Of a stretch of 64,000 nt of DNA, positions 29,675-44,561 are shown piece by piece. Position 1 is the stretch's first letter; the number at the start of each line of letters is the position of its first letter. Under the pieces are notes generated by a model. The model saw only the letters and a list, made by a program, of their open reading frames with translations, did no database searches and was not told where the DNA came from. Source of the stretch: Candidatus Kapaibacterium sp. Lineage in GTDB: Bacteria; Patescibacteriota; Patescibacteriia; UBA9934. The DNA lies in NCBI GenBank assembly GCA_044350705.1, contig JBILHA010000001.1, positions 113,809 through 177,808 on the forward strand, in the 5' to 3' direction. A program made the position numbers and the translations under genes.

Positions 29675-29677
29675 AGG

Positions 29678-29944: not shown

Positions 29945-29956
29945 ACGCCCCTCATA

Positions 29957-29974
29957 ATACCCCCTAGGGGGTAT
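29957..29974. promoter_or_regulatory. predicted CsoR operator (perfect 18-bp palindrome ATACCCCCTAGGGGGTAT)
   Basis: GC-tract inverted repeat of the ATACCC-N-GGGTAT type, 13 nt upstream of csoR. A near-identical site lies upstream of the chromosomal csoR. Confidence 0.6.
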
Positions 29975-30002
29975 ATGTAAAGTGTCTGAGGGGATAGCTA
30001 TG

Positions 30003-30803: not shown

Positions 30804-30811
30804 ATCGCGGG

Positions 30812-31340: not shown

Positions 31341-31456
31341 AATTATATAACTATCTACTTATATAATATCACGACACGAACCCGATCACGCACCAAAAAT
31401 ATTGGCTGGAATAAAGTTAATTTGTGATGGAAGAGTAATTCGCTTACACTGGGGCC

Positions 31457-31876
31457 ATGAATTTGGGGTTTACTCAACAGAATTTCTTGTCCGCCTTTGG
31501 TCGACGCATGGCCACCGCGCTCTTCTTTTGCGTGATGTTCCTTTTGTTTGTCGTGACGTGCCATCCGCTGAGCAATGATGCGCGCTTCGAGCTTGCAGGC
31601 ACTGTAGACGATTGCTGTACCGAGCACGTCACAGAAGCGAGAGATGCGCACGCATCGCCGTTGGCTGATATTGTGCTCCCGAATGGTACCGACTTCATCA
31701 CGACCCTTGCCGTCTTTGCTGCCGTTGTTTTCTTCACGTGGCTTGTCGTGGTGCCGATTACCAAAAGCACCGTACAGCTCCGTGATCGGCTTTTGCGATG
31801 GTTATGGGCGATGCCGTGGCCCTTTGCATGGAGCGGCGGCTATCTCCCGTACTTCAGTCCAATGCGCGATGCATAG
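31457..31876 (+). CDS. hypothetical small membrane protein with DDCC motif (uncertain)
   Basis: Two TM helices and a Cys pair. Competing ORFs exist on the opposite strand, so the region is unresolved. Confidence 0.25.
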   Translation: MNLGFTQQNFLSAFGRRMATALFFCVMFLLFVVTCHPLSNDARFELAGTVDDCCTEHVTEARDAHASPLADIVLPNGTDFITTLAVFAAVVFFTWLVVVPITKSTVQLRDRLLRWLWAMPWPFAWSGGYLPYFSPMRDA

Positions 31877-31917
31877 CATGAGATGAATCAGCTCACGCTT
31901 ATTCATTTTATTTTGCT

Positions 31918-32694
31918 ATGGAAAACGAACAGAAGAATTCGGGCATGCTCGATTCAATGAACCCTAAAGCCTCATTTGTTTTTGGCTTGGTAACTGGTAT
32001 TGCGGCAATCTCGATCCTGATGCAATTCGGTCTCTTGGGAAGCAACGTAAACGCTGCTGACGTCGCAGACTCGGGATCGGCGGTCGTCGCAAACACAAAG
32101 ACTGGTGGAACGAACACCGCGACGGCAAAAGCCCCTACCGGCAAGGTTCCTGAGGTTACTGACGAAGATCATATTCGCGGAGATAAAGATGCCCCCGTCA
32201 CGTTCATCGAGTACTCGGACTTTGAATGTCCTTTCTGCAAAAGGTTTGCGCCAACTGTCGAGCAGATCCTTGAGGAGTACGACGGCGAGGTGAAAGTCGT
32301 CTACCGTCACTATCCGTTGTCATTCCATGCGAACGCACAGAAGGAAGCCGAGGCTTCTGAATGTGCGAACGAACTTGGGGGTAATGATGCCTTCTGGGAG
32401 TACCACGACGCCATCTTTGAGCGTGGAGAAGCAGGAGGAACCGGATTCGCGCTTGATGATCTCGTTCCACTTGCCGAGGAACTTGGCTTGAACGGCGATA
32501 AGTTCCAAGACTGTCTCGATAGCGGCAAGTACGCCAGCCACGTTAAAGAAGACATGGCGGGAGGCGCGGCTGCGGGCGTGACAGGAACGCCGGGGTCGTT
32601 CATCATCGACGCCAAGGGCGACGCGCAGCTCGTTTCTGGTGCCCTCCCGTACGAATCAATCAAAACCATGCTCGATGAAGCGCTTGCAAAGTAG
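31918..32694 (+). CDS. DsbA-like thiol:disulfide oxidoreductase, membrane-anchored
   Basis: N-terminal TM helix. Thioredoxin fold with active site CPFC. Confidence 0.7.
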   Translation: MENEQKNSGMLDSMNPKASFVFGLVTGIAAISILMQFGLLGSNVNAADVADSGSAVVANTKTGGTNTATAKAPTGKVPEVTDEDHIRGDKDAPVTFIEYSDFECPFCKRFAPTVEQILEEYDGEVKVVYRHYPLSFHANAQKEAEASECANELGGNDAFWEYHDAIFERGEAGGTGFALDDLVPLAEELGLNGDKFQDCLDSGKYASHVKEDMAGGAAAGVTGTPGSFIIDAKGDAQLVSGALPYESIKTMLDEALAK

Positions 32695-32753
32695 CCTCAT
32701 GTTTCGGGAGGGCGCTTGTTCGCCCTCCCGGCAGCATATCTAACCTCCCCCAT

Positions 32754-33398
32754 ATGGAAGATCAGCTTACCCCACAGCCTGCAACGGAGCAGTCGCGACC
32801 GCGTCCGGCACGTTTTACGGCAAAGCAAAAGAAGATGATGGTGCTTGCAGCGATGATCGTCATTCCGCTTGCACTCGCGTTTTATTTCAAGAGCCACTTC
32901 ATCGCCGCGACGGTGGACGGCAGCCCGATCAGCCGTTTGACCGTCATCCGTGAATTGGAACGGCAAGGGGGTGAAACGGTGCTTAATGCACTCATTACGG
33001 ATAAACTCGTCGATGCCGAGGCGGCCCGAAAAGGTATCGTTCTTTCGGATGAAGAACTCAATGAAGAGATCGATAAACTCAAAAAAGGGGTTACCGATAT
33101 GGGAGGCTCGTTTGAAGAGGCACTCGCTGAACGAGGCTTTACCGAAGAGAGCCTGCGACGAAACATCGCAACGCAGTTAAAGATCCGCAAACTGCTTGCT
33201 GATGTTATTTCGGTAACCGAGGAAGAGATCGATAGCTACATTACCGAAAGCGGGATCGAGATTCCGGCAGGTAATGAAGCTGAACTTCGAGAGCAAGTCC
33301 GCACCGAACTTGAAGACGGTAAATTTACCCAAGAGGCTGAAGGGTTCATCGAGGGGCTGAAAGCGCAGGCGGATATTACGTATTACGTGAACTACTAG
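32754..33398 (+). CDS. SurA-N-terminal-domain-like periplasmic chaperone, membrane-anchored
   Basis: TM anchor followed by the helical chaperone domain typical of the SurA/PrsA N-terminus. No PPIase domain. Confidence 0.5.
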   Translation: MEDQLTPQPATEQSRPRPARFTAKQKKMMVLAAMIVIPLALAFYFKSHFIAATVDGSPISRLTVIRELERQGGETVLNALITDKLVDAEAARKGIVLSDEELNEEIDKLKKGVTDMGGSFEEALAERGFTEESLRRNIATQLKIRKLLADVISVTEEEIDSYITESGIEIPAGNEAELREQVRTELEDGKFTQEAEGFIEGLKAQADITYYVNY

Positions 33399-33399
33399 T

Positions 33400-34017
33400 A
33401 TGTCCGATTGTTGCGCCATCCCTTCAAAGGCAGACGTCGCGAAGCAGAGAACGATGCTCTGGATCGTCCTCACGCTCAACGCTGTTATGTTTTTCGTAGA
33501 AGTCTACGCCGGCTTTGTCGCCCGTTCGAGCGCCGTTCTTGCCGATTCGCTCGATATGCTTGGCGACGCATTGGTCTACAGCCTGAGCATTTGGTCGCTT
33601 CAGAAAACGGTGCTCTGGAAAGGCCGAGTCTCCCAAGTAAAAGGCTACCTCATGGCGCTGCTCGCGCTTGGCGTCATCGGCGAGGCGATCTGGAAAATCT
33701 TCGCTTCGGTGGAAATTGAAGGTTCGGTCATGATGGGCATCGGCGTCCTCGCGCTGGTCGTAAATACCGTCTGCTTCACCCTACTGAACCGCCACAAGAA
33801 AGACGGTATCAATCTGCGTTCGGCGTGGATTTGCTCGCGCAATGATCTTCTCGCAAATACCGGCGTCTTGATTGGCGGCTTGCTCGTCCTGACCACGTCC
33901 TCGACGTGGCCGGACATCATCATCGCACTGGCAATTGGGTGCTACGTTCTCAAGAGTGCAATTGACGTGATCCGCGAGTCGAGAGAAGAAACGGAACACC
34001 ACGAAAAATGCGTATGA
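33400..34017 (+). CDS. cation-diffusion-facilitator transporter (TM domain only)
   Basis: LADSLDMLGDALVYSLSI and HxxxD-type sites in six TM helices. No cytoplasmic C-terminal domain. Confidence 0.65.
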   Translation: MSDCCAIPSKADVAKQRTMLWIVLTLNAVMFFVEVYAGFVARSSAVLADSLDMLGDALVYSLSIWSLQKTVLWKGRVSQVKGYLMALLALGVIGEAIWKIFASVEIEGSVMMGIGVLALVVNTVCFTLLNRHKKDGINLRSAWICSRNDLLANTGVLIGGLLVLTTSSTWPDIIIALAIGCYVLKSAIDVIRESREETEHHEKCV

Positions 34018-34445
34018 ACCTCAAGCGTTGGATACACTACATCCCTCATGCGGCATGGGCGATGGCGCTCATTGCCACCATGGGGAGCCTTTACTTCAGC
34101 GAGGTCATGCATTTGCCGCCGTGCGTGCTGTGCTGGTACCAACGCATCGCAATGTACCCGCTTGTCGCCATTCTTGCAGTGGGCATTCTCCGCAAGGATA
34201 AGGGGGTTGCCGTCTATGCGCTCCCGCCGGTACTTGTCGGACTTGGTATCTCTATTTACCACAATCTTCTCTACTGGAAGATCCTTCCCGAAAGCGTCGC
34301 GCCGTGCACGCTCGGCGTCTCCTGTACGACAAAGTTCTTCGAATGGTTTGGTTTTATCACCATCCCGTTCCTGTCACTAACAGCCTTTGTCGTACTCACG
34401 GCTCTCCTCATTACTTACCACCGACTTTCAAAGAAATATGATTAG
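34008..34445 (+). CDS. dsbB: disulfide bond formation protein B (DsbB/BdbC-like)
   Basis: Four TM helices. First loop CVLCWYQR, second loop APCTLGVSCT. Confidence 0.7.
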   Translation: MRMNLKRWIHYIPHAAWAMALIATMGSLYFSEVMHLPPCVLCWYQRIAMYPLVAILAVGILRKDKGVAVYALPPVLVGLGISIYHNLLYWKILPESVAPCTLGVSCTTKFFEWFGFITIPFLSLTAFVVLTALLITYHRLSKKYD

Positions 34446-35088
34446 CGATGATGCAAAAGTGCTCCTTGGTATCGGACTGGTGACGGGCATGATTTTTGCC
34501 GGGGTCATCATTACCGGAAATAAATCAGCTCAGCCTCCTGAGCCGGTAGCCGCAGAAATTCTCATCCGCGACGACAGCTGGCAGCAGGAGACGCCTAATG
34601 CAGCCATTACTCTCGTGGAGTTCCTCGACATGGAATGCGAGGCCTGCCGTGCGGCACATCCGCAAATCAAGCAGATTCTCGAAGACTACCAAGGACAGAT
34701 CACGTACGTCGTACGATATTTCCCGCTCCACAAAAACTCTGAGCTCGCCATGAAGACCGTGGAAGCAGCCGGAGAGCAGGGTAAGTACTGGGAGATGTTC
34801 GATCTGCTTTTCGAGCGCCAGACCGAATGGGGAGAAAAATCTGAGCCGCAAACTGTACTCTTTACAGCATATGCCGAAGAGCTTGGCCTTGATATGGCGA
34901 AGTTCAGTACAGCCCTTGAAAGTTCTACATACGAAGACAAGATCGAACGCGATCGACGTGACGGTATTACGGCAGGCGTAAGCGGCACCCCGACCGTCTT
35001 CATCAATGGCGAAGTCGTAGAGGCATTCCCGACGTACAACACGCTCAAGGGGCTCATCGATCAGGAGCTCGCAGAACAGGCGGAGTAG
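34438..35088 (+). CDS. DsbA-like thioredoxin-fold oxidoreductase
   Basis: TM anchor. Active site CEAC in a thioredoxin fold. Start moved to the ATG at 34438, which overlaps the dsbB stop by 8 nt. Confidence 0.7.
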   Translation: MISDDAKVLLGIGLVTGMIFAGVIITGNKSAQPPEPVAAEILIRDDSWQQETPNAAITLVEFLDMECEACRAAHPQIKQILEDYQGQITYVVRYFPLHKNSELAMKTVEAAGEQGKYWEMFDLLFERQTEWGEKSEPQTVLFTAYAEELGLDMAKFSTALESSTYEDKIERDRRDGITAGVSGTPTVFINGEVVEAFPTYNTLKGLIDQELAEQAE

Positions 35089-35091
35089 CTT

Positions 35092-35553
35092 GTGCTCGAA
35101 ACTCTCGCCATCTTCGCCGCTCGGGACCTCATCTTCTTGCTGATCATTGGCGCTGGGGTCGTATTTTTCGCTATTCATCGAAAGGATAGGCTTCGTTTCG
35201 CGGTGCTCGGCACAATTGGAGGCGGAATCTCTTTCGTACTTTCGAGGCTCGTGAAACTGGCGTACTTCAATCCGAGGCCATTTACACTCGACGGTATCCC
35301 GCCGATCATTCCTCATGAGGCTGATAATGGGTTTCCATCAGACCATGCACTCCTCGCATTTACCTTGGCGGCCATCGTCTACACGCGAAATCGGAAGGCT
35401 GGAATCGTTTTCTCCATCGTGGCCACCCTCATCGGCACTGCGCGAGTGTTTCTTCGCATTCATTCGCCGATAGATATCGTAGGAAGCCTCGCGATCTCGC
35501 TCGTCTCCGTGTTCGCTGTGCATCGTATACTTGCTCAACGAACGTCCAAGTAA
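35092..35553 (+). CDS. PAP2-family phosphatase (undecaprenyl-diphosphatase-like)
   Basis: PSDH...SRxxxxxHxxxD signature (PSDHALLAF...RIHSPIDIV). GTG start. Confidence 0.6.
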   Translation: MLETLAIFAARDLIFLLIIGAGVVFFAIHRKDRLRFAVLGTIGGGISFVLSRLVKLAYFNPRPFTLDGIPPIIPHEADNGFPSDHALLAFTLAAIVYTRNRKAGIVFSIVATLIGTARVFLRIHSPIDIVGSLAISLVSVFAVHRILAQRTSK

Positions 35554-35556
35554 ATT

Positions 35557-36408
35557 ATGAAACGCGCTAATAAGAAGAAGCGGAGCGGGCTGCTTTACCT
35601 TGCCGCCGTTTCAATGACAACTCTCGTCGTAACCGGATTCACATCCTCCTTCGTTCGATCGACCTATCCCGATGACGGGGCGGCTATTCCTGATGCAGAC
35701 GTCAATACGTCCTCGGACACGCCGAGCGGAGAGGAGACGTCTGAATCGTTTGCGAAGACGCGGACGTTTGGAGTATCCGAAAAAGGACGCGAGATCGAAG
35801 GTTATGAACTTGGAACCGGGAGTGAATGTCTACTCTTCTTCGGCGGTATCCATGGGAACGAAAAAGGCACCGTTGTGCTCCTTGAACAGTTGGCCGATGA
35901 GGTCATAGCGAAGCCTGAACTCGTCGCGCCGACCAAACGGGTTGTCATCATTCCGCTCTTGAACCCCGACGGATATTCCGAAGGAATCTATCGCGACAAC
36001 ACTAATGGCGTAAACCTTAATCGCAACTTCTTAACGACGGGATGGACAGCGAACCCGGACACAACGACATTTGCAGGGTTACAACCGTTCTCGGAAGCTG
36101 AAAGCAGCGTGCTTCGTGACGTCGTGGAGGAATGCCAACCGAGCCTCATGCTCGCTTTCCATTCACAAGGCGGTGTGGTTTCTCCGGAACTCGGGAAGGA
36201 TTCAATGGCGCTCGCCGAGTGGTATATCGCCAAAACTGGCTACGCGCACTATAACGACTGGGATTACCCCGGAACGGCAACAAAGTGGTTTACCGAGACC
36301 ACGGGCAAACCGGCACTTACCGTCGAGATCACCAATCACATGGAAAGCGATTGGGAGATCAACCAAGACGCATTGCTGCAGCTCATAAATAGCGAGCGAG
36401 GCTTCTAG
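35557..36408 (+). CDS. M14-family zinc carboxypeptidase-like protein
   Basis: Signal/TM anchor. HGNE zinc motif (FGGIHGNEKGT) and a downstream His/Glu. Confidence 0.55.
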   Translation: MKRANKKKRSGLLYLAAVSMTTLVVTGFTSSFVRSTYPDDGAAIPDADVNTSSDTPSGEETSESFAKTRTFGVSEKGREIEGYELGTGSECLLFFGGIHGNEKGTVVLLEQLADEVIAKPELVAPTKRVVIIPLLNPDGYSEGIYRDNTNGVNLNRNFLTTGWTANPDTTTFAGLQPFSEAESSVLRDVVEECQPSLMLAFHSQGGVVSPELGKDSMALAEWYIAKTGYAHYNDWDYPGTATKWFTETTGKPALTVEITNHMESDWEINQDALLQLINSERGF

Positions 36409-36755
36409 CCCAAGAGGCTCCGCAAGAGGCGAATCTCGTCCTTGTCGTACTCCCCACCATACCTCTCAGTCAGATGATCAAGCACGGCGAGAGAAATACG
36501 AAGTTTTTCAAGCGTATCGCGCATCGAGCAATACAGATGAACTGCGGTCGTGTCATCGAGTTCGATCTCTAGCAACCCATTTGTACCCTCCATGTGTACG
36601 GAGATCTTCTCGTCATCTCGAACTCGGCATTCAATCTGCGAGGCGAAGTCAGGAACCTTGGCCTCGACGGCATCTTGAACCTCTTGAAAGAGCGTCTTGG
36701 CATCAAACTCATGGTTAAGGTCGTAAATTGAGATAGAGACTGGCATAGATAACAA
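36405..36755 (-). CDS. hypothetical protein
   Basis: 116-aa acidic ORF upstream of the recombinase, overlapping it by 4 nt. Confidence 0.4.
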   Translation of the reverse strand: MLSMPVSISIYDLNHEFDAKTLFQEVQDAVEAKVPDFASQIECRVRDDEKISVHMEGTNGLLEIELDDTTAVHLYCSMRDTLEKLRISLAVLDHLTERYGGEYDKDEIRLLRSLLG

Positions 36756-36756
36756 G

Positions 36757-37662
36757 TTAGAAGATCGAATTAATAGGGTTCTTTTCGATACTGGCGTGCA
36801 CCTGCTTTTGATTTACTTGAGTGTAGATCATGGTAGTCGTAATCTCCTTGTGGCCGAGCGCTCGTTGGACGGAAACGATATCGTTGCTCCCCATATAGGT
36901 TTGCGTGGCGAACGTGTGCCGGAATTTGTGTGGCTTGATCCTGATGCCCGTCCGGTCACCAATGTGCCGAGTGAGATGCTTAAGGCCATTAGCCGTAAAT
37001 CGAGTCCGACCGTGGTAAGAAACCCACAGCCAGATCGACTCCACCTTTTGCTTCCCACGTTCTTGAAGGTATCGCTCCAGCAGTTCGCGAAGACGGAAGC
37101 ATAGCGGCACCGATCTTGCCATTCGGCTCTTTGAGGTTTCGGCCCGTACACGAATAACCCCGTTCTCCCAATCAAGATCCGTAACTCTGAGGTTGAGTAA
37201 CTCCCCCTTTCGCAGCCCGGCCATAGCCATCACACCGAACATTGCTACATTGCGGACGCGCTCAAAGTCGGTCTGTGCGCTCATGTTGACCTGATACATG
37301 ATCGATTCCATTTCCGCCTGCGTGTAGTACTCCGGCAAGTTTTTGACCAATGGAGGAGTCGGTATCGAAGCGAGTGGATTTACGCCGAGATGACCACGAT
37401 CAACGCACCACTTCAAGAAAGGCGAAAGGTTTTTTCGGTATGAGATAACCGTTGTCGCCTTCCATCCACGCTCTCGCTCTCCCCTGAGGAGGAACTGACG
37501 CAAGATACCTTCCGTCAGCTCGTCCGTCGTCTTCACGGGAAACATCTTCAAAAGCAGGCGAAAGCTCTCGTGATAGCTTTGCATCGTTGCATCCGAACGC
37601 CGTTTCAGGGTTCCATCCTGACACTCGTGGATGAATTGATTGTGCGCCTGCCGTACATCCAC
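36757..37662 (-). CDS. tyrosine-type site-specific recombinase (XerC/D-like)
   Basis: R...HxxR...Y catalytic constellation (HKFRHTFAT...LGHKEITTTMIYTQV). Confidence 0.8.
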   Translation of the reverse strand: MDVRQAHNQFIHECQDGTLKRRSDATMQSYHESFRLLLKMFPVKTTDELTEGILRQFLLRGERERGWKATTVISYRKNLSPFLKWCVDRGHLGVNPLASIPTPPLVKNLPEYYTQAEMESIMYQVNMSAQTDFERVRNVAMFGVMAMAGLRKGELLNLRVTDLDWENGVIRVRAETSKSRMARSVPLCFRLRELLERYLQERGKQKVESIWLWVSYHGRTRFTANGLKHLTRHIGDRTGIRIKPHKFRHTFATQTYMGSNDIVSVQRALGHKEITTTMIYTQVNQKQVHASIEKNPINSIF

Positions 37663-37665
37663 AAA

Positions 37666-38004
37666 TTATTTCATTTCCCACCCGCGCTTTTCCGCGAGAT
37701 TTTGACTTAAGTCGTAAACCATCTCGTACATTCGCCTGTCATCCGCGAGGGAGTCGATCAACTCCTGCATTTCCGCATCCCCGACTGATACGTGGTAATA
37801 GTCGCGGAAATGCATCCAAAACGCCTCAACGAAATCGTATGAGAAGAAAGTTTTGCGGTCCGGATGCTCAAGATAAAGCTCGCGGTCCCGCTTCTCGTCC
37901 TCATCAGCTTTGGCAAACATCTTTTCAACTTCGGGCCGCTCAAGGTACTCAAAGGCTTTTTGAGCATCTTTCCGCGTCCCGATCTCTACGTCACTCGTGT
38001 TCAT
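37666..38004 (-). CDS. hypothetical protein
   Basis: 112-aa ORF between two recombinase genes. Confidence 0.4.
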   Translation of the reverse strand: MNTSDVEIGTRKDAQKAFEYLERPEVEKMFAKADEDEKRDRELYLEHPDRKTFFSYDFVEAFWMHFRDYYHVSVGDAEMQELIDSLADDRRMYEMVYDLSQNLAEKRGWEMK

Positions 38005-38015
38005 AGCATGGGTTA

Positions 38016-39176
38016 TTAATTATTTTTCGAGGCCAATTTCACGATCTCTGCAATACGTTGAAGATCCTCCTCACCGAGCGTTGATCTCCCCGACGTAGCC
38101 TCGAAGTCAATCCCGGTGAGTAGCTCGATCTGCCTTTCTTCGTCGATCTTTCCATAACCGTACGAGCCAAAGGTCGTTGAAACATGCTCATGACCGAGAT
38201 TCTGGCTGATCGCTTTCTTTTGTTCCTCGGTCAACGGGACCTTCATAAATTCTTTGACGACAAGGTGACGAAAGGTGTGAGGGTGAAAATACGGGACGTC
38301 TGCCGCATTAAAGCGTTTCTCGAAAATCTTCCGAGCAGAACTGCTCTTCTCCCAGAACTCGTTCGAAACATCACCTGAGCTGTAGTAACTAATGTTTTCC
38401 TCCCCCTGTTCCAATTTTGTTGCCGGGAAAATGGGATCGTTCTGACCGCGGCCTTTTTCGTTCACCAGATAGTCGTACCAGTCGAGAAAATACTCTCTCG
38501 GCTTCTCGTATTTCAGGGGGAACAGGGCCGTTATGATCCGTTTTGCATACTTCGTTTTCACCCCCAGAGCGGGATTTTGATCAACAACGCAATCATTCCG
38601 ATCAAACGATCCGATCGGGAGACTTACAATTGCGGAGATGCGCGCCCCGGTCAGTAAGGCGAACGAGATGAGCGCCCGGTCTCGCCGATCCACCTCAGTT
38701 AGGGGTTCGATGGATTCAATGACCACTCGTACCTGCTCGATTGTAGGAGATTTCCGCCGTCCCGCCTGTCTCGCCTGCCGACTCTCTTTCTTGCCGAGGT
38801 TTAGGAAATCGACGTCCGTAATTTTGATGCTCTGTCGATATGCATCCTGTACCGCCAGCCACCTGAAGAAAGCCTTGAGCTTTCGCAGGGTGTGATACTG
38901 GTACGAGAGACTCAACGTTTCATCAGCCACGCCCGGTCGGCTCGCGAGCCAATCCTTGAATCGTTTTGCCCGGTCTTTATCGAAAAGGCGAAAGTCTTCG
39001 TTGTTGGTGAACTCTTGCCACCGGAGCAGTGCCTTCTCGTAGGTATCGACTGAATTTTCCGCGTACCCACCGGAGTCACGTTGATAGTCGAAAAAGCGCC
39101 GCTTCATCAACTCGTTTTGATAGCGAATTTCATCGCTCGTTTTGACCTTATTTTTCGCTTCATTCAATTCACTCAT
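38016..39176 (-). CDS. tyrosine-type integrase/recombinase
   Basis: HPHTFRHLVV...LGHEHVSTTFGSYGY in the C-terminal catalytic domain. SAM-like N-terminal domain. Confidence 0.75.
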   Translation of the reverse strand: MSELNEAKNKVKTSDEIRYQNELMKRRFFDYQRDSGGYAENSVDTYEKALLRWQEFTNNEDFRLFDKDRAKRFKDWLASRPGVADETLSLSYQYHTLRKLKAFFRWLAVQDAYRQSIKITDVDFLNLGKKESRQARQAGRRKSPTIEQVRVVIESIEPLTEVDRRDRALISFALLTGARISAIVSLPIGSFDRNDCVVDQNPALGVKTKYAKRIITALFPLKYEKPREYFLDWYDYLVNEKGRGQNDPIFPATKLEQGEENISYYSSGDVSNEFWEKSSSARKIFEKRFNAADVPYFHPHTFRHLVVKEFMKVPLTEEQKKAISQNLGHEHVSTTFGSYGYGKIDEERQIELLTGIDFEATSGRSTLGEEDLQRIAEIVKLASKNN

Positions 39177-39196
39177 ATAGTCGTCTGTGAGAGTGA

Positions 39197-39601
39197 TCAG
39201 TTAATCCTTTTAGGAGACGTCGGGATAAACCTGCGCATAATCGAGCCGCAGTCCCCACAATTTGCCACCTCTTGCAGTTGCTCGCGGTTGTCTTTGCCGA
39301 CGAGCTTTCCTGTCTTCTCCGTCCTGACACTTTCGAGATCAACGCGCTTCGCTTCGTGACATCTCAGGCAGTAGAACTCTCCCGGCTGGAGCTTCACTCT
39401 ATGATCCTGTCGGCGCTTGCTGAGAAATGCCTTAAGTTGATCGCCATAGAACAGGAGTGGATTGGTGTCTGAACGGATAGGTTTCAGCCCGTCATCTACC
39501 CAGCGGTAGATGCTCCCCCTTCTAACATCGAGCAGATCAGCGATCTCCTGCGGCGTATACGTTCGGCGATCTTTGATGATCCGAAGATTGTGATTACGCA
39601 T
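39197..39601 (-). CDS. HTH DNA-binding protein with C-terminal zinc ribbon (excisionase/regulator candidate)
   Basis: Excisionase-like HTH (QEIADLLDVRRGSIYRWV) plus CLRCH...CGDCG. Start moved to the internal ATG at 39601. Confidence 0.45.
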   Translation of the reverse strand: MRNHNLRIIKDRRTYTPQEIADLLDVRRGSIYRWVDDGLKPIRSDTNPLLFYGDQLKAFLSKRRQDHRVKLQPGEFYCLRCHEAKRVDLESVRTEKTGKLVGKDNREQLQEVANCGDCGSIMRRFIPTSPKRIN

Positions 39602-39611
39602 ATCAGGAGGA

Positions 39612-39884
39612 TTAATTCCACCAGCTTTGCCCAAGCGCCCCTCGAATACGACCTTTAATGTCTCGGACCGTCGACCAAAACCGAATCGGCTCGATGGCCA
39701 TCTCCCCGGCAAACAGCCGATTCTGTATCGCCTCCAGCTCTTTGGAGGAAACGAAAACCGCCACGGCTCGGCGTGGGTTAATGGGGTCAGACTCAAACGC
39801 CTTGATCGGGATCTCATGGTAGGCGAGAACGCAGATCAAAATGAATTCTGACGTCTTAAACAGATTCATCTTCTTGGATTTCAT
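39612..39884 (-). CDS. hypothetical small protein
   Basis: 90-aa ORF immediately upstream of the HTH gene. Confidence 0.3.
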   Translation of the reverse strand: MKSKKMNLFKTSEFILICVLAYHEIPIKAFESDPINPRRAVAVFVSSKELEAIQNRLFAGEMAIEPIRFWSTVRDIKGRIRGALGQSWWN

Positions 39885-40022
39885 AACATCTATTTCATCT
39901 TGATTACCGCCACATCACATCAAAATCTGCGTGCTTAAAGTACGCAGAACCTCCCCCGGTGGCATAACAAAAAAAGAGCCATATTATTGGCTCAAAAAAA
40001 GTTATGCACTTTTTAAGTGAAG

Positions 40023-40847
40023 TTAAGTGTCGACTTTATTCAGTCGGGTCTGATAGGCCTTCTCTGAAATAACCTCCATGCGAACCGTCGGAACGACTCG
40101 ACCATTTTCTATCTGAAGTACCCGCGTAAGACCGAGTCCACTTCGTGTGTAAAGCGAACAACGGTCGTTTGTATTGAAATAGTCGAGGAAACCGCGCATA
40201 TCATCTGGAACCACGTCTTCCTGCTCTGCAATGCGTACAAGAAATCCCCAATACTTACCTAAGCCATTCAGGAAGGCGCTTTCATAATTGCCATTAACGA
40301 TAACCCGAACCTTCGGTCGTCCCTCAAGCCGAACGAAAAGGATTTCGCGGATATTTGGGCTGGGTAGTAATTTTGGCTGCTCTTTCTTATTTGCCGCTAT
40401 GGCTAGACCACGTTCTTCGAGAATTTCCACCACCTTTAAGGCGATATCCTCCTTGTCTTCCTCAGTCAGTTTCCGATCTGGAATGAGGGCAGGGATCATC
40501 TCCTCCTCATCCTCCATGACCTCAACACAGAGATGACCGAACCTTAATGGTTCAATGGCCGGAAGTTGGGGAATTTCAAACGAAATTCTCGCCATCTCCG
40601 TCAGTTTTTGCATTTCATTGAATGAGTCGATGATTTGCTGTCCCGGCAGCGTTAATTTTCCCAGCTGCGCAGCCTTTTCGGCTACTCCGGTTAATGCGGC
40701 CGCCGCCATCTGAAAACTCGCCTCATGAGCGTCAAAAAAGCCCTGAATCCTCTTTTGTGACTCAAGAAACGGGGCGAGCGCCGTCTGCATTTCTTCTTCG
40801 ACGTGTTTGACGGCCGATAAACCCGTCAAATCTAAATACTTCGTCAT
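40023..40847 (-). CDS. hypothetical protein (274 aa)
   Basis: Clean ORF with no recognisable motif. Confidence 0.5.
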   Translation of the reverse strand: MTKYLDLTGLSAVKHVEEEMQTALAPFLESQKRIQGFFDAHEASFQMAAAALTGVAEKAAQLGKLTLPGQQIIDSFNEMQKLTEMARISFEIPQLPAIEPLRFGHLCVEVMEDEEEMIPALIPDRKLTEEDKEDIALKVVEILEERGLAIAANKKEQPKLLPSPNIREILFVRLEGRPKVRVIVNGNYESAFLNGLGKYWGFLVRIAEQEDVVPDDMRGFLDYFNTNDRCSLYTRSGLGLTRVLQIENGRVVPTVRMEVISEKAYQTRLNKVDT

Positions 40848-41147
40848 ATACTCATCTCATCTGGGACAAAATTACCAGAAAAAATCCCATTTCTCAATTT
40901 GAGGCAAGGATAAGTTCGGAGTTGCTTACCCTGAAAAAATAAGGTATTATTACCTCACAACACCTAAACCCGACCCCGTGGTTGGGCATGGTTAAACACC
41001 TACACGACTGAGACGGTCTTCCGACTGGCACTTATTCGTGTAGGGCCCTATTCCGCAAGGATAGGGGGTTGTTGCCGAAAGGCGCAGCCGTCAGCTCGGG
41101 AGACCTTTTGAGTTTCCCGACATTTATTAACCCCTACACGAATACCT

Positions 41148-41726
41148 ATGTCGCACGATACGACAGGGACCAAAAACTGGTTCGCCAGACACAAGATACT
41201 CAGCGCACTCGGAGGAATCATCCTCTTTTTCATTATCATCGGAGCAGCTTCAGACGGCTCATCTAGTACAAGCTCTTCAAGCAACCCTTCCGGCTCGAAT
41301 GCCGAGCAGCAGGAAGCGCCAGCGGCTTACACGCTGAACGACGAGGTGACCGTTGGCGACGTAAAGTGGATTGTGACCTCTGCTACATCGAAAACCTCGC
41401 TTGCTGGAGCATTTGGCGGCACAGAAACGACTCAAGGAAAATTTGTCGTTATTAACGTGACCGTCGAAAATTTGGGAAAGGACATGAAATCCATGTCGAA
41501 CCTAAAGCTGGTCGATAGCCAAGGTCGCGAGTTCACAAGCTCCTCCAAAAGCTATAAGAATCTTGGAGCAGAGCAGCTTTACATCCTTCAAAACCTGAAT
41601 CCCAACCTGCCGTATACCTTCGCGGACGTGTACGAGGTGCCTACTGGTGCGGAGGGCCTCTCGGTGGTGGTCGGAGATTTGGCACTTTTTGGAAGTGATG
41701 AAGCCAAGATTGGCCTCGGTTTCTAA
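41148..41726 (+). CDS. DUF4352-like secreted/anchored protein
   Basis: TM anchor, Ser-rich linker, then a beta-sandwich-like domain (KFVVINVTVENLGKD), typical of DUF4352. Confidence 0.55.
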   Translation: MSHDTTGTKNWFARHKILSALGGIILFFIIIGAASDGSSSTSSSSNPSGSNAEQQEAPAAYTLNDEVTVGDVKWIVTSATSKTSLAGAFGGTETTQGKFVVINVTVENLGKDMKSMSNLKLVDSQGREFTSSSKSYKNLGAEQLYILQNLNPNLPYTFADVYEVPTGAEGLSVVVGDLALFGSDEAKIGLGF

Positions 41727-41744
41727 AACCCGAAACACCCTCAT

Positions 41745-41772
41745 GAAAACCTCCCCTTCGGGGAGGTTTTCT
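41745..41772 (+). terminator. rho-independent terminator
   Basis: AAACCTCCCC-TTCG-GGGGAGGTTTT. Confidence 0.75.
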
Positions 41773-41786
41773 GATACATTGCGCGC

Positions 41787-43091
41787 ATGAACATCGAAGA
41801 TTTGCGATCATCAGTGACGGAGGAGATATGGAAAAAGTTGGAATCGGTAGCAAACAAATTTGTTACGGAAGCCATGCGATTCGAACTGGTCGATCAGTAC
41901 GGCCAAGAGCGGTATTTTCATTTGGATTTTTCTGAGTTCAGAAACACCAATCAGGATATCTACTCCCATTTCCATAAGCAGAAAACTGGCCTGAGCCCTG
42001 AAGACATCATCTATCCCTATTTTCAGGCTGGGGTGTATCTAGCCGTAGATCGTGATTGGAAGCAATACGAAAAACTCCGTTCGATGAGCTCGCTTCAACG
42101 CGATCCCTTCTATTTTCACAAAGACGCACCGCACGACGCCCTTGTGAACATGAAGATCATGGAGTCCATGGCGGAGGCCCAACAACGCCATGCTTTTATT
42201 GTGCCGATTTGGAACTTTACGAATTTCACCGAAGGACTCATTGAATTTGAAGAAAATCTGCAGAAGTTGTTACCGCCGGAAATTCAACTTATTTTGACAG
42301 AAGAATCAGCAAAACGAGAACACGCGGCGTTGATCGGAACCATATACGAGCAGCACATGCGCCTCACCGAGGTGAAGGAATTTTTCAGCTACCCGTCAGT
42401 AATGCTGTCGTGTGTAGGTACCAATTTCTTCGCCTTCCAAAAAGCGTGTTCGTCCTTACGTATAGTTTGCGATCTCTTCAGAATTTCAGGTTACCTTTTT
42501 CCGGGACAGCTCTCCTCTGACGTCGATGGCCTAAAGATATATACCGCAGCAATGGTTTCGCCCGGCTCGGTTGGGACCTGTTTCGATTGGGAAGACGAGA
42601 AACGAGGTATCAAAGAGCGCCGCCCTGATGGAAACCTCTTCCAATCGCACGGCCACAGAAGGGTTTCCAAAATGTTCATTGATACACGCAACTACGGCGG
42701 ATTCCTGCAGGTCTTTAAAGAATGGTCGCCGTGGATCCAGAAAGCAGTCGACGACCCATTCGACAAGAAGGTACTACATACACTCATTCCGATCCTGCAC
42801 TTGCTTTCGGAGGTCACGCAGGCACAGAGCGTGGGGTCGAAGATCCTTCTCTTGAACTGCTGCCTTGAAAGCATGTTCGTACCCAATGGAGCGCCGGGAC
42901 AACAGAAATACATCGTTGGTGCATTGAAAGTCATCAACGAGGATTTGGTCGATTGGTTTGAAAAGCGGCTCTACAAGCAAAGATGCGTATTCGCCCACGA
43001 AGGCTATCTGGTTGCGGATGAAAAATCGAGAGGACTCGTCACCGAATCGATGCGCAATATACTCACTTGTTTGAAGATGAAACTGGGCTGA
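41787..43091 (+). CDS. hypothetical protein (434 aa)
   Basis: Long clean ORF with its own terminator. No recognised domain. Confidence 0.55.
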   Translation: MNIEDLRSSVTEEIWKKLESVANKFVTEAMRFELVDQYGQERYFHLDFSEFRNTNQDIYSHFHKQKTGLSPEDIIYPYFQAGVYLAVDRDWKQYEKLRSMSSLQRDPFYFHKDAPHDALVNMKIMESMAEAQQRHAFIVPIWNFTNFTEGLIEFEENLQKLLPPEIQLILTEESAKREHAALIGTIYEQHMRLTEVKEFFSYPSVMLSCVGTNFFAFQKACSSLRIVCDLFRISGYLFPGQLSSDVDGLKIYTAAMVSPGSVGTCFDWEDEKRGIKERRPDGNLFQSHGHRRVSKMFIDTRNYGGFLQVFKEWSPWIQKAVDDPFDKKVLHTLIPILHLLSEVTQAQSVGSKILLLNCCLESMFVPNGAPGQQKYIVGALKVINEDLVDWFEKRLYKQRCVFAHEGYLVADEKSRGLVTESMRNILTCLKMKLG

Positions 43092-43103
43092 TCCTCTTAT
43101 CAT

Positions 43104-43130
43104 AAAACCACTCGCAAGAGTGGTTTTATT
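43104..43130. terminator. bidirectional rho-independent terminator
   Basis: AAAACCACTC-GCAA-GAGTGGTTTT between convergent genes. Confidence 0.75.
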
Positions 43131-43156
43131 CATAGCCTATATAGCGGGTCAAGTGA

Positions 43157-44107
43157 TCATGCGAAGTTCAGGGGGTGTTTCGTCATCTGGCTCCTCAAAT
43201 GCTCAACAGAAGCCGATAGGTAGATTGTCGTCGTTTTAATGTCGTTATGGCCCAGCATTTTAGAGAGCGAATAGATATCGCAGCCGCCCTCAATCATCAG
43301 GGTTGCGAACGTGTGCCGGAGCATGTGAATGTAGAAGTAAAGGCCCGAGGCCGCAATGATGCGCTCGACGAGCCGCTTCAGGCCTGAGTCCGTAAATCTC
43401 CCATCCCGATGCAATGAGACAAAGAAGTACAGGTTTGTTTTCTGCAGCTTCTCACGTTCGGTAAGGTATTTCTCAAGAATCGCAATAAGCTGAAATGGAA
43501 TGGGTACGACACGGTCTTTATTGCCCTTGCCCTGTCGGATGCAGATGACCATGTTCATCAAATCGACGTCCGTTATCTTGAGCTTGAGCAACTCATTCTT
43601 ACGAAGTCCGCAGTAAAGGAACATCGCAAATATTGCATGATTCCGATGGCGTAAGAATGCATGTGGGTACGGAAGGCATGCGGACGTTTCGATAATCGTG
43701 AGCGCCTCTTGTTTGGTGAGTCGTTTGGGCAAGTTCTTCTCAAGCCGAGGTTTTTCGATTTGCGCGAAAGGATTCTCACTCACGAAGTGCCGATCTTGTG
43801 CCCACTTGAAGAAGACATTGAGGCGTTTGTGATGGGTAATAAAGGTGCTTGCCGTCCATTTCTTTGTTGACCTCCCCCAGTAAAAGAATTTCTGGGCGAC
43901 TAAAAAAGACACCTCGTCAACACGCTCTACTTCAGGGCATGCCTGCAAGAACGTTCTGAGTGTCTCTCGATAACTTTTTACCGTCGTCGAACGGTAATTC
44001 CTGATTGTCTCCTGATACTGACAAAAAGACTCGTGCAGTTCTCCGATCCTCATATTCATCTCATTTAGAGCGGAATATGGATCGAGTATCCACTTCAGAT
44101 GTCTCAA
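43157..44107 (-). CDS. int: tyrosine-type integrase adjacent to tRNA gene
   Basis: HMLRHTFATLMIEGGCDIYSLSKMLGHNDIKTTTIYLS catalytic region. Its 3' end is 23 nt from the tRNA 3' end. Confidence 0.85.
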   Translation of the reverse strand: MRHLKWILDPYSALNEMNMRIGELHESFCQYQETIRNYRSTTVKSYRETLRTFLQACPEVERVDEVSFLVAQKFFYWGRSTKKWTASTFITHHKRLNVFFKWAQDRHFVSENPFAQIEKPRLEKNLPKRLTKQEALTIIETSACLPYPHAFLRHRNHAIFAMFLYCGLRKNELLKLKITDVDLMNMVICIRQGKGNKDRVVPIPFQLIAILEKYLTEREKLQKTNLYFFVSLHRDGRFTDSGLKRLVERIIAASGLYFYIHMLRHTFATLMIEGGCDIYSLSKMLGHNDIKTTTIYLSASVEHLRSQMTKHPLNFA

Positions 44108-44129
44108 TACGAGATTAAGCCATCTGAAG

Positions 44130-44406
44130 TGGAGCCACAGTCGGGATTTGAACCCGAGACCTCATCCTTCGTTTACACCCCTGTTTTCTTGGGCACTATC
44201 AGGGGGCTAGACTGTATCTTAGGCATGTCTTGCGACGAAGCCTCCCTTGTCAGTCGTTCGGGCGTACGCTTTCGCGTTGACGCCACGGTCTTGACCTTGC
44301 CGGGTCTTTAACCGTAATTCGGGGTTCAGTCCCGCATTTCTGCGAGAGGGGGCAGGAGACATTACGTCCCACCATGGATGCGCTCTACCAACTGAGCTAC
44401 TGCGGC
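44130..44406 (-). tRNA. tRNA-Thr(GGU) interrupted by a group I intron between positions 36/37
   Basis: 5' exon GCCGCAG-TA-GCTC-AGTTGGTA-GAGC-G-CATCC-ATGGU (44371..44406). 3' exon AA-GGATG-AGGTC-TCGGG-TTCAAAT-CCCGA-CTGTGGC-T-CCA (44130..44169). Acceptor and anticodon stems pair perfectly only when the exons are joined. The 5' exon ends in U and the intron ends in G. Confidence 0.6.
44170..44370 (-). ncRNA. group-I-like self-splicing intron (~201 nt) in tRNA-Thr(GGU)
   Basis: Contains GGTCAAGACCG (P4/P6-like), a P7 pair GACTG...CAGTC with the J8/7-like AAGATACAGTC (consensus AAGATATAGTC), and a terminal omega-G. Insertion after the anticodon matches the Azoarcus tRNA-Ile class. Confidence 0.5.
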
Positions 44407-44520
44407 ATGAATTGTTTCACTCCGACGACCGCCTCCACGGAGGATGTGGTCGTCCTATTTCTCTTTTCTTGATTTCTTCTTTTACATTGGCGTCAAACCT
44501 AGTTCTCAGGGTAGACCACC

Positions 44521-44532
44521 TCCTTACCATGG
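44521..44532. repeat. 12-bp att core, right copy (TCCTTACCATGG)
   Basis: Identical to 25821..25832. Confidence 0.7.
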
Positions 44533-44561
44533 ACGCGCTCTACCAACTGAGCTACTGCGGC
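44521..44561 (-). tRNA. 5' half of the split chromosomal tRNA-Thr(GGU) gene (positions 1-41)
   Basis: GCCGCAG-TA-GCTC-AGTTGGTA-GAGC-G-CGTCC-ATGGTAA-GGA, then unrelated sequence with no T-arm. Pairs perfectly with the 3' half at 25786..25830. Confidence 0.65.

What the first reader, a model, noticed from the sequence alone, without database searches (positions are those of the whole stretch)
44130..44406. Element-borne replacement tRNA-Thr(GGU) interrupted by a ~201-nt group-I-like intron after the anticodon
Just inside the element, next to the integrase, is a second tRNA-Thr(GGU). Its exons (36 nt and 40 nt) are separated by 201 nt and pair perfectly only when joined. Its 5' exon differs from the disrupted chromosomal gene at one base. 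The 5' exon ends in U and the intron ends in G. The intron carries GGTCAAGACCG and a GACTG...AAGATACAGTC arrangement resembling P7/J8/7 of group I introns. Insertion after anticodon nucleotide 36 matches the Azoarcus tRNA-Ile(CAU) intron class. The element thus appears to inactivate the host tRNA-Thr(GGU) and supply an intron-containing replacement, a possible addiction or compensation arrangement that I have not seen described.
Basis: partly seen in the sequence, partly recalled or inferred. Interest (0 to 1): 0.8.

Follow-up and report, generated by a model that had tools for sequence, protein, structure and literature searches.

The report
Island-borne tRNA-Thr with group I intron
A mobile DNA island has cut the host's threonine tRNA gene in two and carries its own replacement copy, which is itself interrupted by a self-splicing-type intron; each trick is already known, but their combination, with the intron sitting exactly in the sequence the island's integrase targets, has not been described in the literature I could search.

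Summary
On the minus strand, 44406-44130 is a tRNA-Thr(GGU) gene: a 36-nt exon, a 201-nt intron after nt 36 and a 40-nt exon. It has U-1 and omega-G.

The intron belongs to a group I family that splits tRNA-Thr(GGU) in more than 100 mostly Patescibacteria genomes. P1-P9, including the P3/P7 pseudoknot, are supported by covariation (96% of cells paired against 31-46% in slid controls). Rfam RF00028 and default ARAGORN miss it, as published.

The gene lies just inside an ~18.7-kb island (about 25833-44520). A tyrosine integrase inserted the island into the anticodon loop of the host tRNA-Thr(GGU). attL and attR share only CCATGGTAAGGA. Neither junction rebuilds a tRNA, and the two host halves rejoin in silico to a perfect tRNA.

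This matches "tRNA-dependent lysogeny" / island "gene replacement", which is already known. "Addiction" is not supported.

What is new: 27 of 67 related integrase loci carry the intron-split copy. Intron-less replacement copies also exist, but all 7 have an inverted 29:41 pair and diverge from the host. Split copies keep the target-like arm and are near-identical to the host gene. The intron may therefore shield the copy from the element's own integrase.

The parts
44524..44561 (-). Host tRNA-Thr(GGU) 5' half (nt 1-38, intact anticodon loop ATGGTAA), left at attL
   Evidence: The sequence is identical in strain L001 up to ...CCATGGTAA and then diverges. Rfam gives only a 16.3-bit sub-threshold tRNA hit over 44488-44561.
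44521..44532 (-). att common core CCATGGTAAGGA at attL (anticodon loop plus flanking stem bases)
   Evidence: It is the only block shared with attR.
44514..44523 (-). Element-derived right core arm GGAGGTGGTC (mimics tRNA nt 39-48; no T arm follows)
   Evidence: In 35 distinct attL sites the third base is A in 31, and positions 7-10 are G, G, T, C in 30, 31, 29 and 31 sites.
44427..44436 (-). Second copy of the arm motif (GGAGGCGGTC), 87 nt downstream of the core; inferred extra integrase-binding site of attP
   Evidence: A repeat within 2 mismatches at offset 76 or 87-88 nt occurs in 22 of 35 attL sites, against 1.7 expected from shuffled arms.
44371..44406 (-). Exon 1 of the element-borne tRNA-Thr(GGU) (nt 1-36; U-1 at 44371)
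44170..44370 (-). Group I intron, 201 nt (omega-G at 44170)
44351..44373 (-). P1: exon GGU plus intron GGGA pairs with UCCUGCC (44357-44351); U-1 forms a wobble pair with G18
   Evidence: helix 1. The U.G pair is present in all 107 sequences, and the extension of the helix covaries.
44327..44350 (-). P2 hairpin with GAAA loop
   Evidence: All 9 pairs show changes on both sides.
44321..44323 (-). P3 5' strand (CCC); pairs with 44246-44244 (GGG), forming a pseudoknot with P7
   Evidence: 100% of cells are paired, with 4 CG-to-UA double changes.
44261..44315 (-). P4-P5-P6 domain (P4 44315-44310 / 44290-44285; P5 44306-44293; P6/P6a 44284-44261 with GAAA loop)
   Evidence: P5 and P6 covary. P4 is invariant.
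44210..44255 (-). P7 (GACUG 44255-44251 / CAGUC 44214-44210) enclosing the P3 3' strand, the P8 hairpin (44243-44221) and J8/7 AAGAUA (44220-44215)
   Evidence: All 4 pairs of P8 covary. P7 and J8/7 are invariant, but they were fixed by the search pattern.
44178..44205 (-). P9 hairpin
   Evidence: All 5 pairs covary.
44130..44169 (-). Exon 2 (nt 37-76 including CCA)
44090..44132 (-). Hairpin between the tRNA and the integrase gene (CCACTTCAGATG...CATCTGAAGTGG); the same position holds terminator-like hairpins in related elements
43157..44059 (-). Tyrosine integrase (300 aa), same orientation as the tRNA
   Evidence: Pfam Phage_integrase E = 3.5e-33; 1809 relatives at E <= 1e-30.
25833..44520 (.). 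Body of the integrative element, about 18.7 kb. It carries the integrase, a DUF4352 protein, LOOT RNA, an HTH_17 protein, two further tyrosine recombinases, an M14 peptidase, a PAP2 protein, DsbA-like proteins, cation-efflux proteins, a P-type ATPase and a DsbD/HMA protein.
25821..25832 (-). att common core CCATGGTAAGGA at attR
25786..25823 (-). Host tRNA-Thr(GGU) 3' half (nt 39-76), followed by its terminator (about 25785-25745)
   Evidence: Anticodon stem 5/5, acceptor stem 7/7 and T stem 5/5 are complementary to the 5' half at attL.

Best explanation
An integrative element of about 18.7 kb, with a tyrosine integrase, has recombined its attP with the anticodon stem-loop of the host's tRNA-Thr(GGU) gene. 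That gene is the last gene of a tRNA-Thr(UGU)-tRNA-Tyr-hairpin-tRNA-Thr(GGU) cluster.

attP and attB share only about 12 bp (CCATGGTAAGGA). The host gene is therefore left as two dead halves, the 5' half at attL and the 3' half 18.7 kb away at attR.

The element carries a complete tRNA-Thr(GGU) gene of its own. It starts 155 nt downstream of the start of the host's 5' fragment, in the same orientation, and lies immediately upstream of the integrase gene. This copy is interrupted between nt 36 and 37 by a 201-nt group I intron. Transcription (inferred: read-through from the host tRNA cluster and/or an element promoter), self-splicing (inferred from structure) and normal end-processing would give a functional tRNA-Thr(GGU). 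That tRNA would compensate for the gene the element destroyed.

Shown here: the exon/intron anatomy, the covarying group I fold, attL/attR and the split host gene, and the recurrence of the module in many genomes.

Inferred: splicing activity, expression, and that the host needs this tRNA.
For: Anatomy and a perfect spliced cloverleaf.

Group I fold:
- RNAalifold on a structure-blind MAFFT alignment of 107 homologues recovers P1, P2 and P4-P9.
- With P3 added, 96.2% of cells pair, against 31-46% when partners are slid.
- The covariation score is 0.486 against at most 0.124 in slid controls. No shuffle of 500 reaches the observed values.
- U-1 (required by the exon search pattern) and omega-G (required by the exon-2 search) could be placed in 108 of 114 loci that have a recognisable 5' exon.
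- A profile built without the window hits it at E = 2e-43.

Element:
- attR carries the matching host 3' half.
- The rejoined host halves give a perfect tRNA.
- A sister strain, L001, has an identical chromosome up to ...CCATGGTAA and then a different element of the same design.
- Eight more loci have both junctions, with element sizes of 3.7-10.6 kb.
- A second arm motif lies at a fixed offset from the core.

Integrase family: 27 of 67 informative metagenome loci have this intron-split tRNA 66-108 nt upstream of the integrase gene.

Published experimental precedent for the disrupt-and-complement logic: PMC10865867.
Against: No RNA data exist, and splicing of this Thr 36/37 intron class has not been shown experimentally. 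PMC13011429 tested only the Asn and Asp 35/36 introns.

Rfam RF00028 gives no hit even at E <= 10.

No sigma-70-like promoter was found upstream of the copy.

Only 64 kb of the genome is visible, so another tRNA-Thr(GGU) gene elsewhere cannot be excluded.

No empty attB was found in a sister strain.

The element holds three recombinase genes and may be composite.
Confidence: 0.85

Rival explanations
1. The intron is a passenger with no role in the element's biology. tRNA-Thr(GGU) genes of Patescibacteria usually carry this intron. The element simply captured such a gene, or was gene-converted by one. Host-identical exons would then reflect recent capture or conversion, not selection.
For: 99 of 108 split genes in the species-representative genomes have neither an integrase nor a host fragment nearby, and many sit in ordinary tRNA clusters.

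The same replacement architecture works without an intron in L138, L145, L178, L188 and L191, and for tRNA-Thr(CGU) in L205 and L207.

Element-borne introns are scattered among native ones in a distance tree.
Against: This does not explain why all 7 intron-less replacement copies carry a purine at position 29 and a pyrimidine at 41, while 31/31 split copies, 35/35 host targets and 94/99 native genes carry Y29.

It also does not explain why intron-less copies differ from the host 5' half at 5-12 of 36 nt, whereas split copies differ at a median of 1.

Plain and split elements are interspersed in the integrase tree, in at least 5 contrasts.
Confidence: 0.45
2. The split tRNA is the native chromosomal gene. 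The upstream 5' fragment is only a local partial duplication, and no element has disrupted a tRNA.
For: The fragment lies only 155 nt upstream. A search for the element copy's own 3' end with up to 3 mismatches found no 3' fragment.
Against: The missing 3' half is at 25823-25786. It is preceded by the same 12-nt core and pairs perfectly with the fragment.

Strain L001 has the same fragment followed by a different element.

Eight other loci show the same two-junction anatomy.
Confidence: 0.02
3. The 201-nt insert is not a functional intron, and the element-borne gene is a dead tRNA pseudogene.
For: No Rfam group I hit. No expression data.
Against: More than 100 homologues keep the exons intact, with compensatory changes. 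They keep U-1, omega-G and every core helix with covariation. In many genomes the split gene sits in normal tRNA clusters.
Confidence: 0.05

Closest known systems
tRNA-dependent lysogeny of actinobacteriophages (Fionnbharth and others; Guerrero-Bustamante & Hatfull 2024, PMC10865867)
   Same: A tyrosine integrase is used. attB overlaps a host tRNA at the anticodon loop. The common core is short (about 10 bp there, 12 bp here). No functional tRNA is rebuilt at attL or attR. [quoted passage not shown]
   Different: Here the carrier shows no phage genes, and the integrase family is essentially absent from IMG/VR. The host is probably a Patescibacteria-type bacterium. The tRNA lies directly between attP and the integrase gene, co-oriented with the host fragment. 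In about 40% of the family the replacement tRNA carries a group I intron. A requirement for the tRNA has not been tested here.
'Gene replacement' by integrative genetic elements (Mageeney et al. 2020, PMC7192596: a tmRNA island in Rhodobacter; hrpB islands)
   Same: The target gene is disrupted and not restored, and is supplanted by an element-borne homologue.
   Different: Those cases involve a tmRNA gene and a protein gene, with no intron. A tRNA-Thr family is not reported there.
Group I introns at 36/37 of tRNA-Thr(GGU) in Patescibacteria (tFind, Williams 2020, 10.1101/2020.01.27.920355; Nakagawa et al. 2026, PMC13011429)
   Same: Same tRNA, same insertion site, same U-1/omega-G boundaries and about 180-210 nt in length. 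These introns are also missed by RF00028 and often mis-registered by ARAGORN, exactly as seen here.
   Different: Those reports treat the introns as features of chromosomal tRNA genes. No link to integrases or to disrupted host tRNA genes is mentioned. PMC13011429 contains the word 'integrase' zero times.
Classical tRNA-targeting genomic islands (Islander; anticodon-loop sublocation)
   Same: A tyrosine integrase sits next to a tRNA. The crossover is in the symmetric anticodon stem-loop. attL and attR flank the island.
   Different: Classical islands carry the 3' part of the tRNA inside attP and regenerate the gene at attL. Here attP keeps only a 10-nt mimic of nt 39-48, and the gene is not regenerated.
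Azoarcus tRNA-Ile(CAU) and Agrobacterium tRNA-Arg group I introns (IC3)
   Same: A compact intron of about 200 nt after anticodon-loop nt 36, with no homing endonuclease gene.
   Different: There is no detectable sequence relationship through Rfam. The subgroup was not determined here. The closest cores I found are introns in phage protein genes (L009, L010, L012).

Membership tests
Group I intron | P1 helix with a U.G wobble at the 5' splice site | tested here: met
   Exon GGU plus intron GGGA pairs with UCCUGCC. The U.G pair is present in 107/107 homologues, and neighbouring pairs covary.
Group I intron | Terminal guanosine (omega-G) before the 3' splice site | tested here: met
   G at 44170. 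In the homologues, a G preceding AA plus the complementary anticodon stem could be placed in 108 of 114 loci. This was a search criterion, so it is not independent evidence.
Group I intron | Conserved core: P4-P6 domain and P3-P8 domain with the P3/P7 pseudoknot, plus J8/7 | tested here: met
   All helices were recovered blind or counted. 96.2% of cells pair against 31-46% in slid controls, and 28 of 44 pairs show double changes. P7 and J8/7 are invariant by construction of the search pattern.
Group I intron | Match to the curated covariance model (Rfam RF00028) | tested here: not met
   No hit at E <= 10 on 43900-44950, nor on related loci. The literature reports the same blind spot for this intron class (PMC13011429), so this counts against the model rather than against the fold.
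Group I intron | Guanosine-dependent self-splicing | not testable with these tools
   Needs in vitro transcription and splicing, or RNA-seq.
tRNA-Thr(GGU) 36/37 intron family of Patescibacteria | Homology to other members, at the same insertion site in the same tRNA | tested here: met
   nhmmer profile from 106 other members: E = 2e-43, full length. ARAGORN -i calls Thr(ggt) i(37).
tRNA-dependent lysogeny / island gene replacement | Tyrosine integrase with an attB overlapping a host tRNA, and only a short common core | tested here: met
   Integrase at 43157-44059. A 12-nt core is shared by attL and attR.
tRNA-dependent lysogeny / island gene replacement | No functional tRNA rebuilt at either junction | tested here: met
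   attL scores 16.3 bits against a 29-bit threshold and no T arm follows it. attR has no 5' half.
tRNA-dependent lysogeny / island gene replacement | [quoted passage not shown] | tested here: met
   The spliced product is tRNA-Thr(GGU).
tRNA-dependent lysogeny / island gene replacement | The element's tRNA is required for survival of integrants | not testable with these tools
   Needs genetics, or at least the whole genome, to count tRNA-Thr(GGU) genes.
tRNA-dependent lysogeny (strict sense: temperate phage) | The carrier is a temperate phage | tested here: inconclusive
   PHROGs hits are only to integrases, an excisionase-like HTH and one protein of unknown function. The cargo is metal-resistance-like. 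The integrase family is not found in IMG/VR.
Classical tRNA-restoring genomic island | attP contains the tRNA 3' part, so the gene is regenerated at attL | tested here: not met
   After the core, attL reads GGAGGTGGTCTACCCTGAGAAC, with no T arm or acceptor strand.
IC3 subgroup (Azoarcus-type tRNA introns) | Subgroup-specific core and peripheral features | not tested
   Only the insertion site (36/37) is shared. PMC13011429 classes most Patescibacteria tRNA introns as IA and calls the Thr ones divergent.

The most novel reading that the evidence does not exclude
The intron is a functional part of the mobile element. It splits the 7-nt overlap (ATGGT|AA) of the att core inside the element's own tRNA copy. 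This lets the element carry a host-identical tRNA-Thr(GGU) without presenting a second attB to its own or a competing integrase. Intron-less elements have to achieve the same by inverting the 29:41 pair of the core arm.

As a corollary, these integrase elements are vehicles that move an endonuclease-less group I intron between genomes. One destination lies outside Patescibacteria (Niastella populi). Native intron-bearing alleles would be immune to insertion, which would help explain why the intron is so common in Patescibacteria tRNA-Thr(GGU).
Probability: 0.35. Interest if true: 0.8.

Novelty: new variant of a known kind. Interest (0 to 1): 0.55.

Why it matters
[quoted passage not shown] PMC13011429 concludes that horizontal transfer appears limited.

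This locus and its relatives show such an intron riding on a site-specific integrative element. The element kills the intron-less host allele and installs the intron-bearing one. That is a concrete, testable route for intron spread and for allele replacement.

It also extends tRNA-dependent integration, proven so far in actinobacteriophages, to a large integrase family (1809 protein clusters at E <= 1e-30). That family is found mainly in candidate-phyla-radiation bacteria, where tRNA gene redundancy is low.

If the intron does shield the att core, it would be an example of an intron protecting DNA from a recombinase rather than from a homing endonuclease.

In practical terms, tRNA and island annotation pipelines miss both the split gene and the disrupted host gene.

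Tried and rejected
- Rfam gave no group I hit, either at gathering thresholds or at E <= 10. The only hit in the intron was a weak one to BjrC68 over P4-P6.
- Default ARAGORN misses the gene.
- A search for the host 3' half using the element copy's own 3' end with up to 3 mismatches found nothing. The T arms differ. The 3' half was found instead through the ATGGTAA core.
- I first read attP as a perfect CCTCC-ATGGTAA-GGAGG stem-loop with a 13-nt shared core. Re-reading the sequence corrected this to a 12-nt core (CCATGGTAAGGA) and an imperfect inverted repeat.
- My first hypothesis was that the intron is required for the replacement architecture. It was rejected when intron-less replacement copies turned up in the same integrase family.
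- I looked for an empty attB in sister strains by exact look-up of flanking proteins. All contigs carry an element. More distant relatives have different synteny.
- The phage hypothesis: no structural genes and no relatives in IMG/VR.
- A sigma-70 promoter scan upstream of the copy found none.
- Literature searches for group I intron together with integrase or island found nothing relevant.

Full report
**1. The observation**

On the minus strand the window reads, in order:
- tRNA-Thr(UGU), 44884-44808;
- tRNA-Tyr, 44787-44703;
- a 140-nt spacer;
- a tRNA-Thr(GGU) 5' fragment, 44561-44524;
- about 115 nt of non-tRNA sequence;
- GCCGCAGTAGCTCAGTTGGTAGAGCGCATCCATGGT (44406-44371);
- 201 nt (44370-44170);
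- AAGGATGAGGTCTCGGGTTCAAATCCCGACTGTGGCTCCA (44169-44130);
- a hairpin;
- a tyrosine integrase gene, 44059-43157.

The two flanking pieces join to a perfect tRNA-Thr(GGU) cloverleaf. The 5' exon ends in U and the insert ends in G. The exon differs from the upstream fragment at one base, A28 versus G28. ARAGORN with intron detection calls the split gene. Default ARAGORN and Rfam do not. One small exception: GGTCAAGACCG belongs to P5/J5/4/P4 rather than to P7.

**2. Is it a group I intron?**

Rfam RF00028 gives nothing, even at E <= 10. I therefore took the most conserved stretch shared by the window and a sister strain (P7-P3'-P8-J8/7) as a search pattern.

In viral contigs the pattern found introns with the same core in phage protein genes. 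Nearly all are Patescibacteria MAGs. In 108 of them I could place a tRNA-Thr(GGU) split after nt 36, with U-1 and omega-G and introns of 158-266 nt.

A structure-blind MAFFT alignment of 107 distinct sequences, folded by RNAalifold, returned P1 (with an invariant U.G at the splice site), P2, P4, P5, P6, P7, P8 and P9. I then added the P3 pseudoknot and counted pairs:
- 96.2% of cells pair, against 31-46% when partners are slid by 1-3 columns.
- 28 of 44 pairs show changes on both sides.
- The covariation score is 0.486 against at most 0.124 in the slid controls.
- No shuffle of 500 reaches the observed values.
- P3 carries four CG-to-UA double changes.

P7 and J8/7 are invariant only because my search pattern fixed them. 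A profile made from the 106 other introns hits the window once, full length, at E = 2e-43.

The literature already lists this class. tFind finds 'Thr (GGU) 36/37' introns in Patescibacteria that RF00028 misses and that ARAGORN often mis-registers as Arg(GCG) 34/35 (PMC13011429, read; method in 10.1101/2020.01.27.920355). I saw the same mis-registrations. Splicing of this particular class has not been shown experimentally.

**3. Is the gene element-borne, and is the host gene destroyed?**

Yes. The host's missing 3' half is at 25823-25786 on the minus strand. It is preceded by the same CCATGGTAAGGA that ends the 5' fragment, and followed by a terminator. The fragment at attL and this piece rejoin in silico to a perfect tRNA-Thr(GGU), with a CGTCC/GGACG anticodon stem.

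The junctions read:
- attL: CGTCC-ATGGTAA-GGAGGTGGTC, followed by non-tRNA sequence;
- attR: ...GACCCCTCC-CATGGTAA-GGACG..., followed by the T arm and acceptor strand.

The crossover therefore lies in the anticodon loop, the shared core is 12 nt, and neither junction is a tRNA. The attL region scores only 16.3 bits against a 29-bit threshold.

The inserted DNA is about 18.7 kb. It carries the integrase, a DUF4352 protein, a LOOT RNA, an excisionase-like HTH protein, two more tyrosine recombinases and metal-handling genes. No phage structural genes were found.

A sister strain (L001; its Fur protein is 99% identical) has an identical chromosome through ...CCATGGTAA. It then carries a different element of the same design. 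That element has its own diverged intron-containing tRNA-Thr(GGU) and an integrase only 48% identical to the window's.

**4. The family**

The integrase has 1809 relatives (90% clusters) at E <= 1e-30. They are mostly unnamed. The named ones come from Uhrbacteria, Parcubacteria, Patescibacteria and Chitinophagaceae. The family is essentially absent from IMG/VR.

Among 80 metagenome loci encoding relatives of 50-100% identity, 67 have at least 330 nt upstream of the integrase gene:
- 27 have this intron-split tRNA ending 66-108 nt upstream of the integrase gene.
- 19 have an intron-less tRNA there: Thr(GGU), Thr(CGU) or Lys.
- 21 have neither.

Where sequence allows, the split copy is preceded at 153-227 nt by a host 5' half ending ...TGGTAA, followed by an element arm (consensus TAAACAGGTC). 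Eight further loci contain both junctions, with host halves that pair perfectly. Their elements measure 3.7-10.6 kb.

A second copy of the arm 10-mer lies 76 or 87-88 nt downstream of the core in 22 of 35 distinct attL sites, against 1.7 expected. This looks like a conserved attP architecture.

Five loci show an attP-like palindrome with no tRNA half upstream. One is in the cultured Bacteroidota strain Niastella populi (GTGTTTA-ATGGTAA-TAAACAC).

**5. What is known**

Disrupting a host tRNA at a short core and complementing it with an element-borne cognate tRNA is 'tRNA-dependent lysogeny'. It has been demonstrated genetically in mycobacteriophages (PMC10865867). For islands it is noted as 'gene replacement' (PMC7192596).

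The compensation logic is therefore not new. 'Addiction' is not the right word either, since precise excision restores the host gene. I found no paper that connects a group I intron in a tRNA with an integrase or island.

**6. Why the intron? (inference)**

The intron is not needed for the architecture. The layout 'host fragment - attP arm - complete tRNA - integrase' also occurs with intron-less tRNA-Thr(GGU) (L138, L145, L178, L188, L191) and with tRNA-Thr(CGU) (L205, L207). The two kinds of copy nevertheless differ systematically.

| Property | Split copies | Intron-less replacement copies |
|---|---|---|
| Mismatches to the host 5' half (of 36 nt) | median 1; 11 of 26 identical | 5-12 |
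| Anticodon stem identical to host's | 19/26 | 0/7 |

Fisher p = 0.0008 and Mann-Whitney p = 0.0001.

Where attR is available, split copies can match the host over the whole tRNA (L168 73/73, L139 71/73) or mainly around the anticodon arm (window, L186, L212).

Position 29 is a pyrimidine in 35/35 host targets, 31/31 split copies and 94/99 native split genes. It is a purine in 7/7 intron-less replacement copies. Its partner, position 41, corresponds to the third base of the right core arm, which is A in 31/35 attP arms.

Plain and split elements are interspersed in the integrase tree, giving at least five contrasts. This is therefore not one lineage effect, although no formal phylogenetic correction was done.

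A reading that fits these data runs as follows. A host-like, uninterrupted copy would be a second attB about 150 bp from attP. Elements avoid this either by mutating the arm or by carrying the intron, which splits the 7-nt overlap at ATGGT|AA.

The rival reading is that the intron merely came along with genes or conversion tracts from Patescibacteria, where it is common. Of the 108 split genes in species representatives, 99 show neither an integrase nor a fragment. Element-borne introns are scattered among native ones. This points to repeated exchange between elements and chromosomes, which fits either reading.

**7. Verdict**

The group I assignment and the 'disrupt and replace' reading are supported. 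Both components are already known, but their combination, the family-wide pattern and the intron's position inside the att core are new. I found them only in sequence data.

Remaining uncertainties:
- actual splicing and expression;
- whether the host depends on this copy;
- whether the 18.7-kb insert is a single element;
- host taxonomy. NCBI calls the source just 'bacterium'. Close relatives of its Fur protein and of the integrase come from Patescibacteria MAGs.

Noticed in passing
window 44562-44702 (-): The spacer between tRNA-Tyr and the tRNA-Thr(GGU) fragment folds into one long hairpin of about 125 nt (-69.7 kcal/mol, z = -9.4). Strains L001 and L002 have a different sequence at the same place with the same end-pairing and a compensated inner stem (GUACC/GGUAC versus GUAGG/CCUAC). 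In many bacteria a tRNA-Gly sits at this position. The function is unknown.
   Followed up: partly
window 40961-41089 (+): A LOOT RNA (Rfam RF03000, 52.3 bits, above the gathering score) lies inside the integrative element, just upstream of a DUF4352 / phrog_806 gene (41148-41726).
   Followed up: no
window 36757-39817 (-): Two further tyrosine recombinase genes (38016-39176 and 36757-37662; the latter is 37% identical to the att-proximal integrase) and an HTH_17 excisionase-like gene (39197-39817) lie in the middle of the island. The 18.7-kb insert may be composite or nested.
   Followed up: partly
window 44252-44323 (-): The only Rfam signal inside the intron is a weak match (18.7 bits, E = 0.047) of its P4-P6 region to BjrC68, a Bradyrhizobiaceae 'sRNA'. 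That family may itself be a fragment of a tRNA group I intron.
   Followed up: no
L009 6041-6079, L010 3206-3243, L012 6389-6426, L014 7573-7610: IMG/VR phage contigs carry group I introns with the same P4-P6/P7/J8/7 core, apparently inside protein-coding genes. Rfam found no group I hit in the three that were scanned (L009, L010, L012; L014 was not scanned).
   Followed up: partly
L066 (Niastella populi NZ_LWBP01000002.1), oriented coordinates 2423-3737: A cultured Bacteroidota strain carries the split tRNA-Thr(GGU) plus integrase module behind a perfect attP-like palindrome (GTGTTTA-ATGGTAA-TAAACAC). No host tRNA half is present. An IS21-like transposase gene lies next to it, with a serine-recombinase-like gene about 3 kb downstream of the integrase. 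It is a possible experimental system.
   Followed up: partly
L205 and L207, about 250 nt upstream of the integrase: The same disrupt-and-replace layout exists for tRNA-Thr(CGU). The host 5' half ends ...TCGTAA|TAAACAGGTC and is followed by a complete, diverged, intron-less tRNA-Thr(CGU). A sister clade of the integrases sits 114-129 nt downstream of tRNA-Lys(UUU/CUU).
   Followed up: partly
L019 5186-5510: Two intron-containing tRNA-Thr(GGU) genes stand in tandem, 259 nt apart start to start, at the end of a contig.
   Followed up: no
L171, about 40-115 nt upstream of the integrase: An integrase sister to a split-tRNA element has a plain, host-type (ACTCC stem) tRNA-Thr(GGU) directly upstream, followed by the element-type terminator. 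There is no host fragment and no att core. It may be a 'locked' derivative produced by recombination between the fragment and the copy.
   Followed up: no
window 17720-18019 and 19475-19774: A 300-nt direct repeat (94% identical) lies inside two adjacent ORFs of about 530-540 aa with no Pfam match (16583-18178, 18305-19933). They are likely tandem paralogues.
   Followed up: no
window 27419-29674 (-) and 57218-59491 (+): There are two HMA/P-type ATPase genes of nearly the same length and domain layout (751 and 757 aa), one inside the island and one in the chromosome.
   Followed up: no
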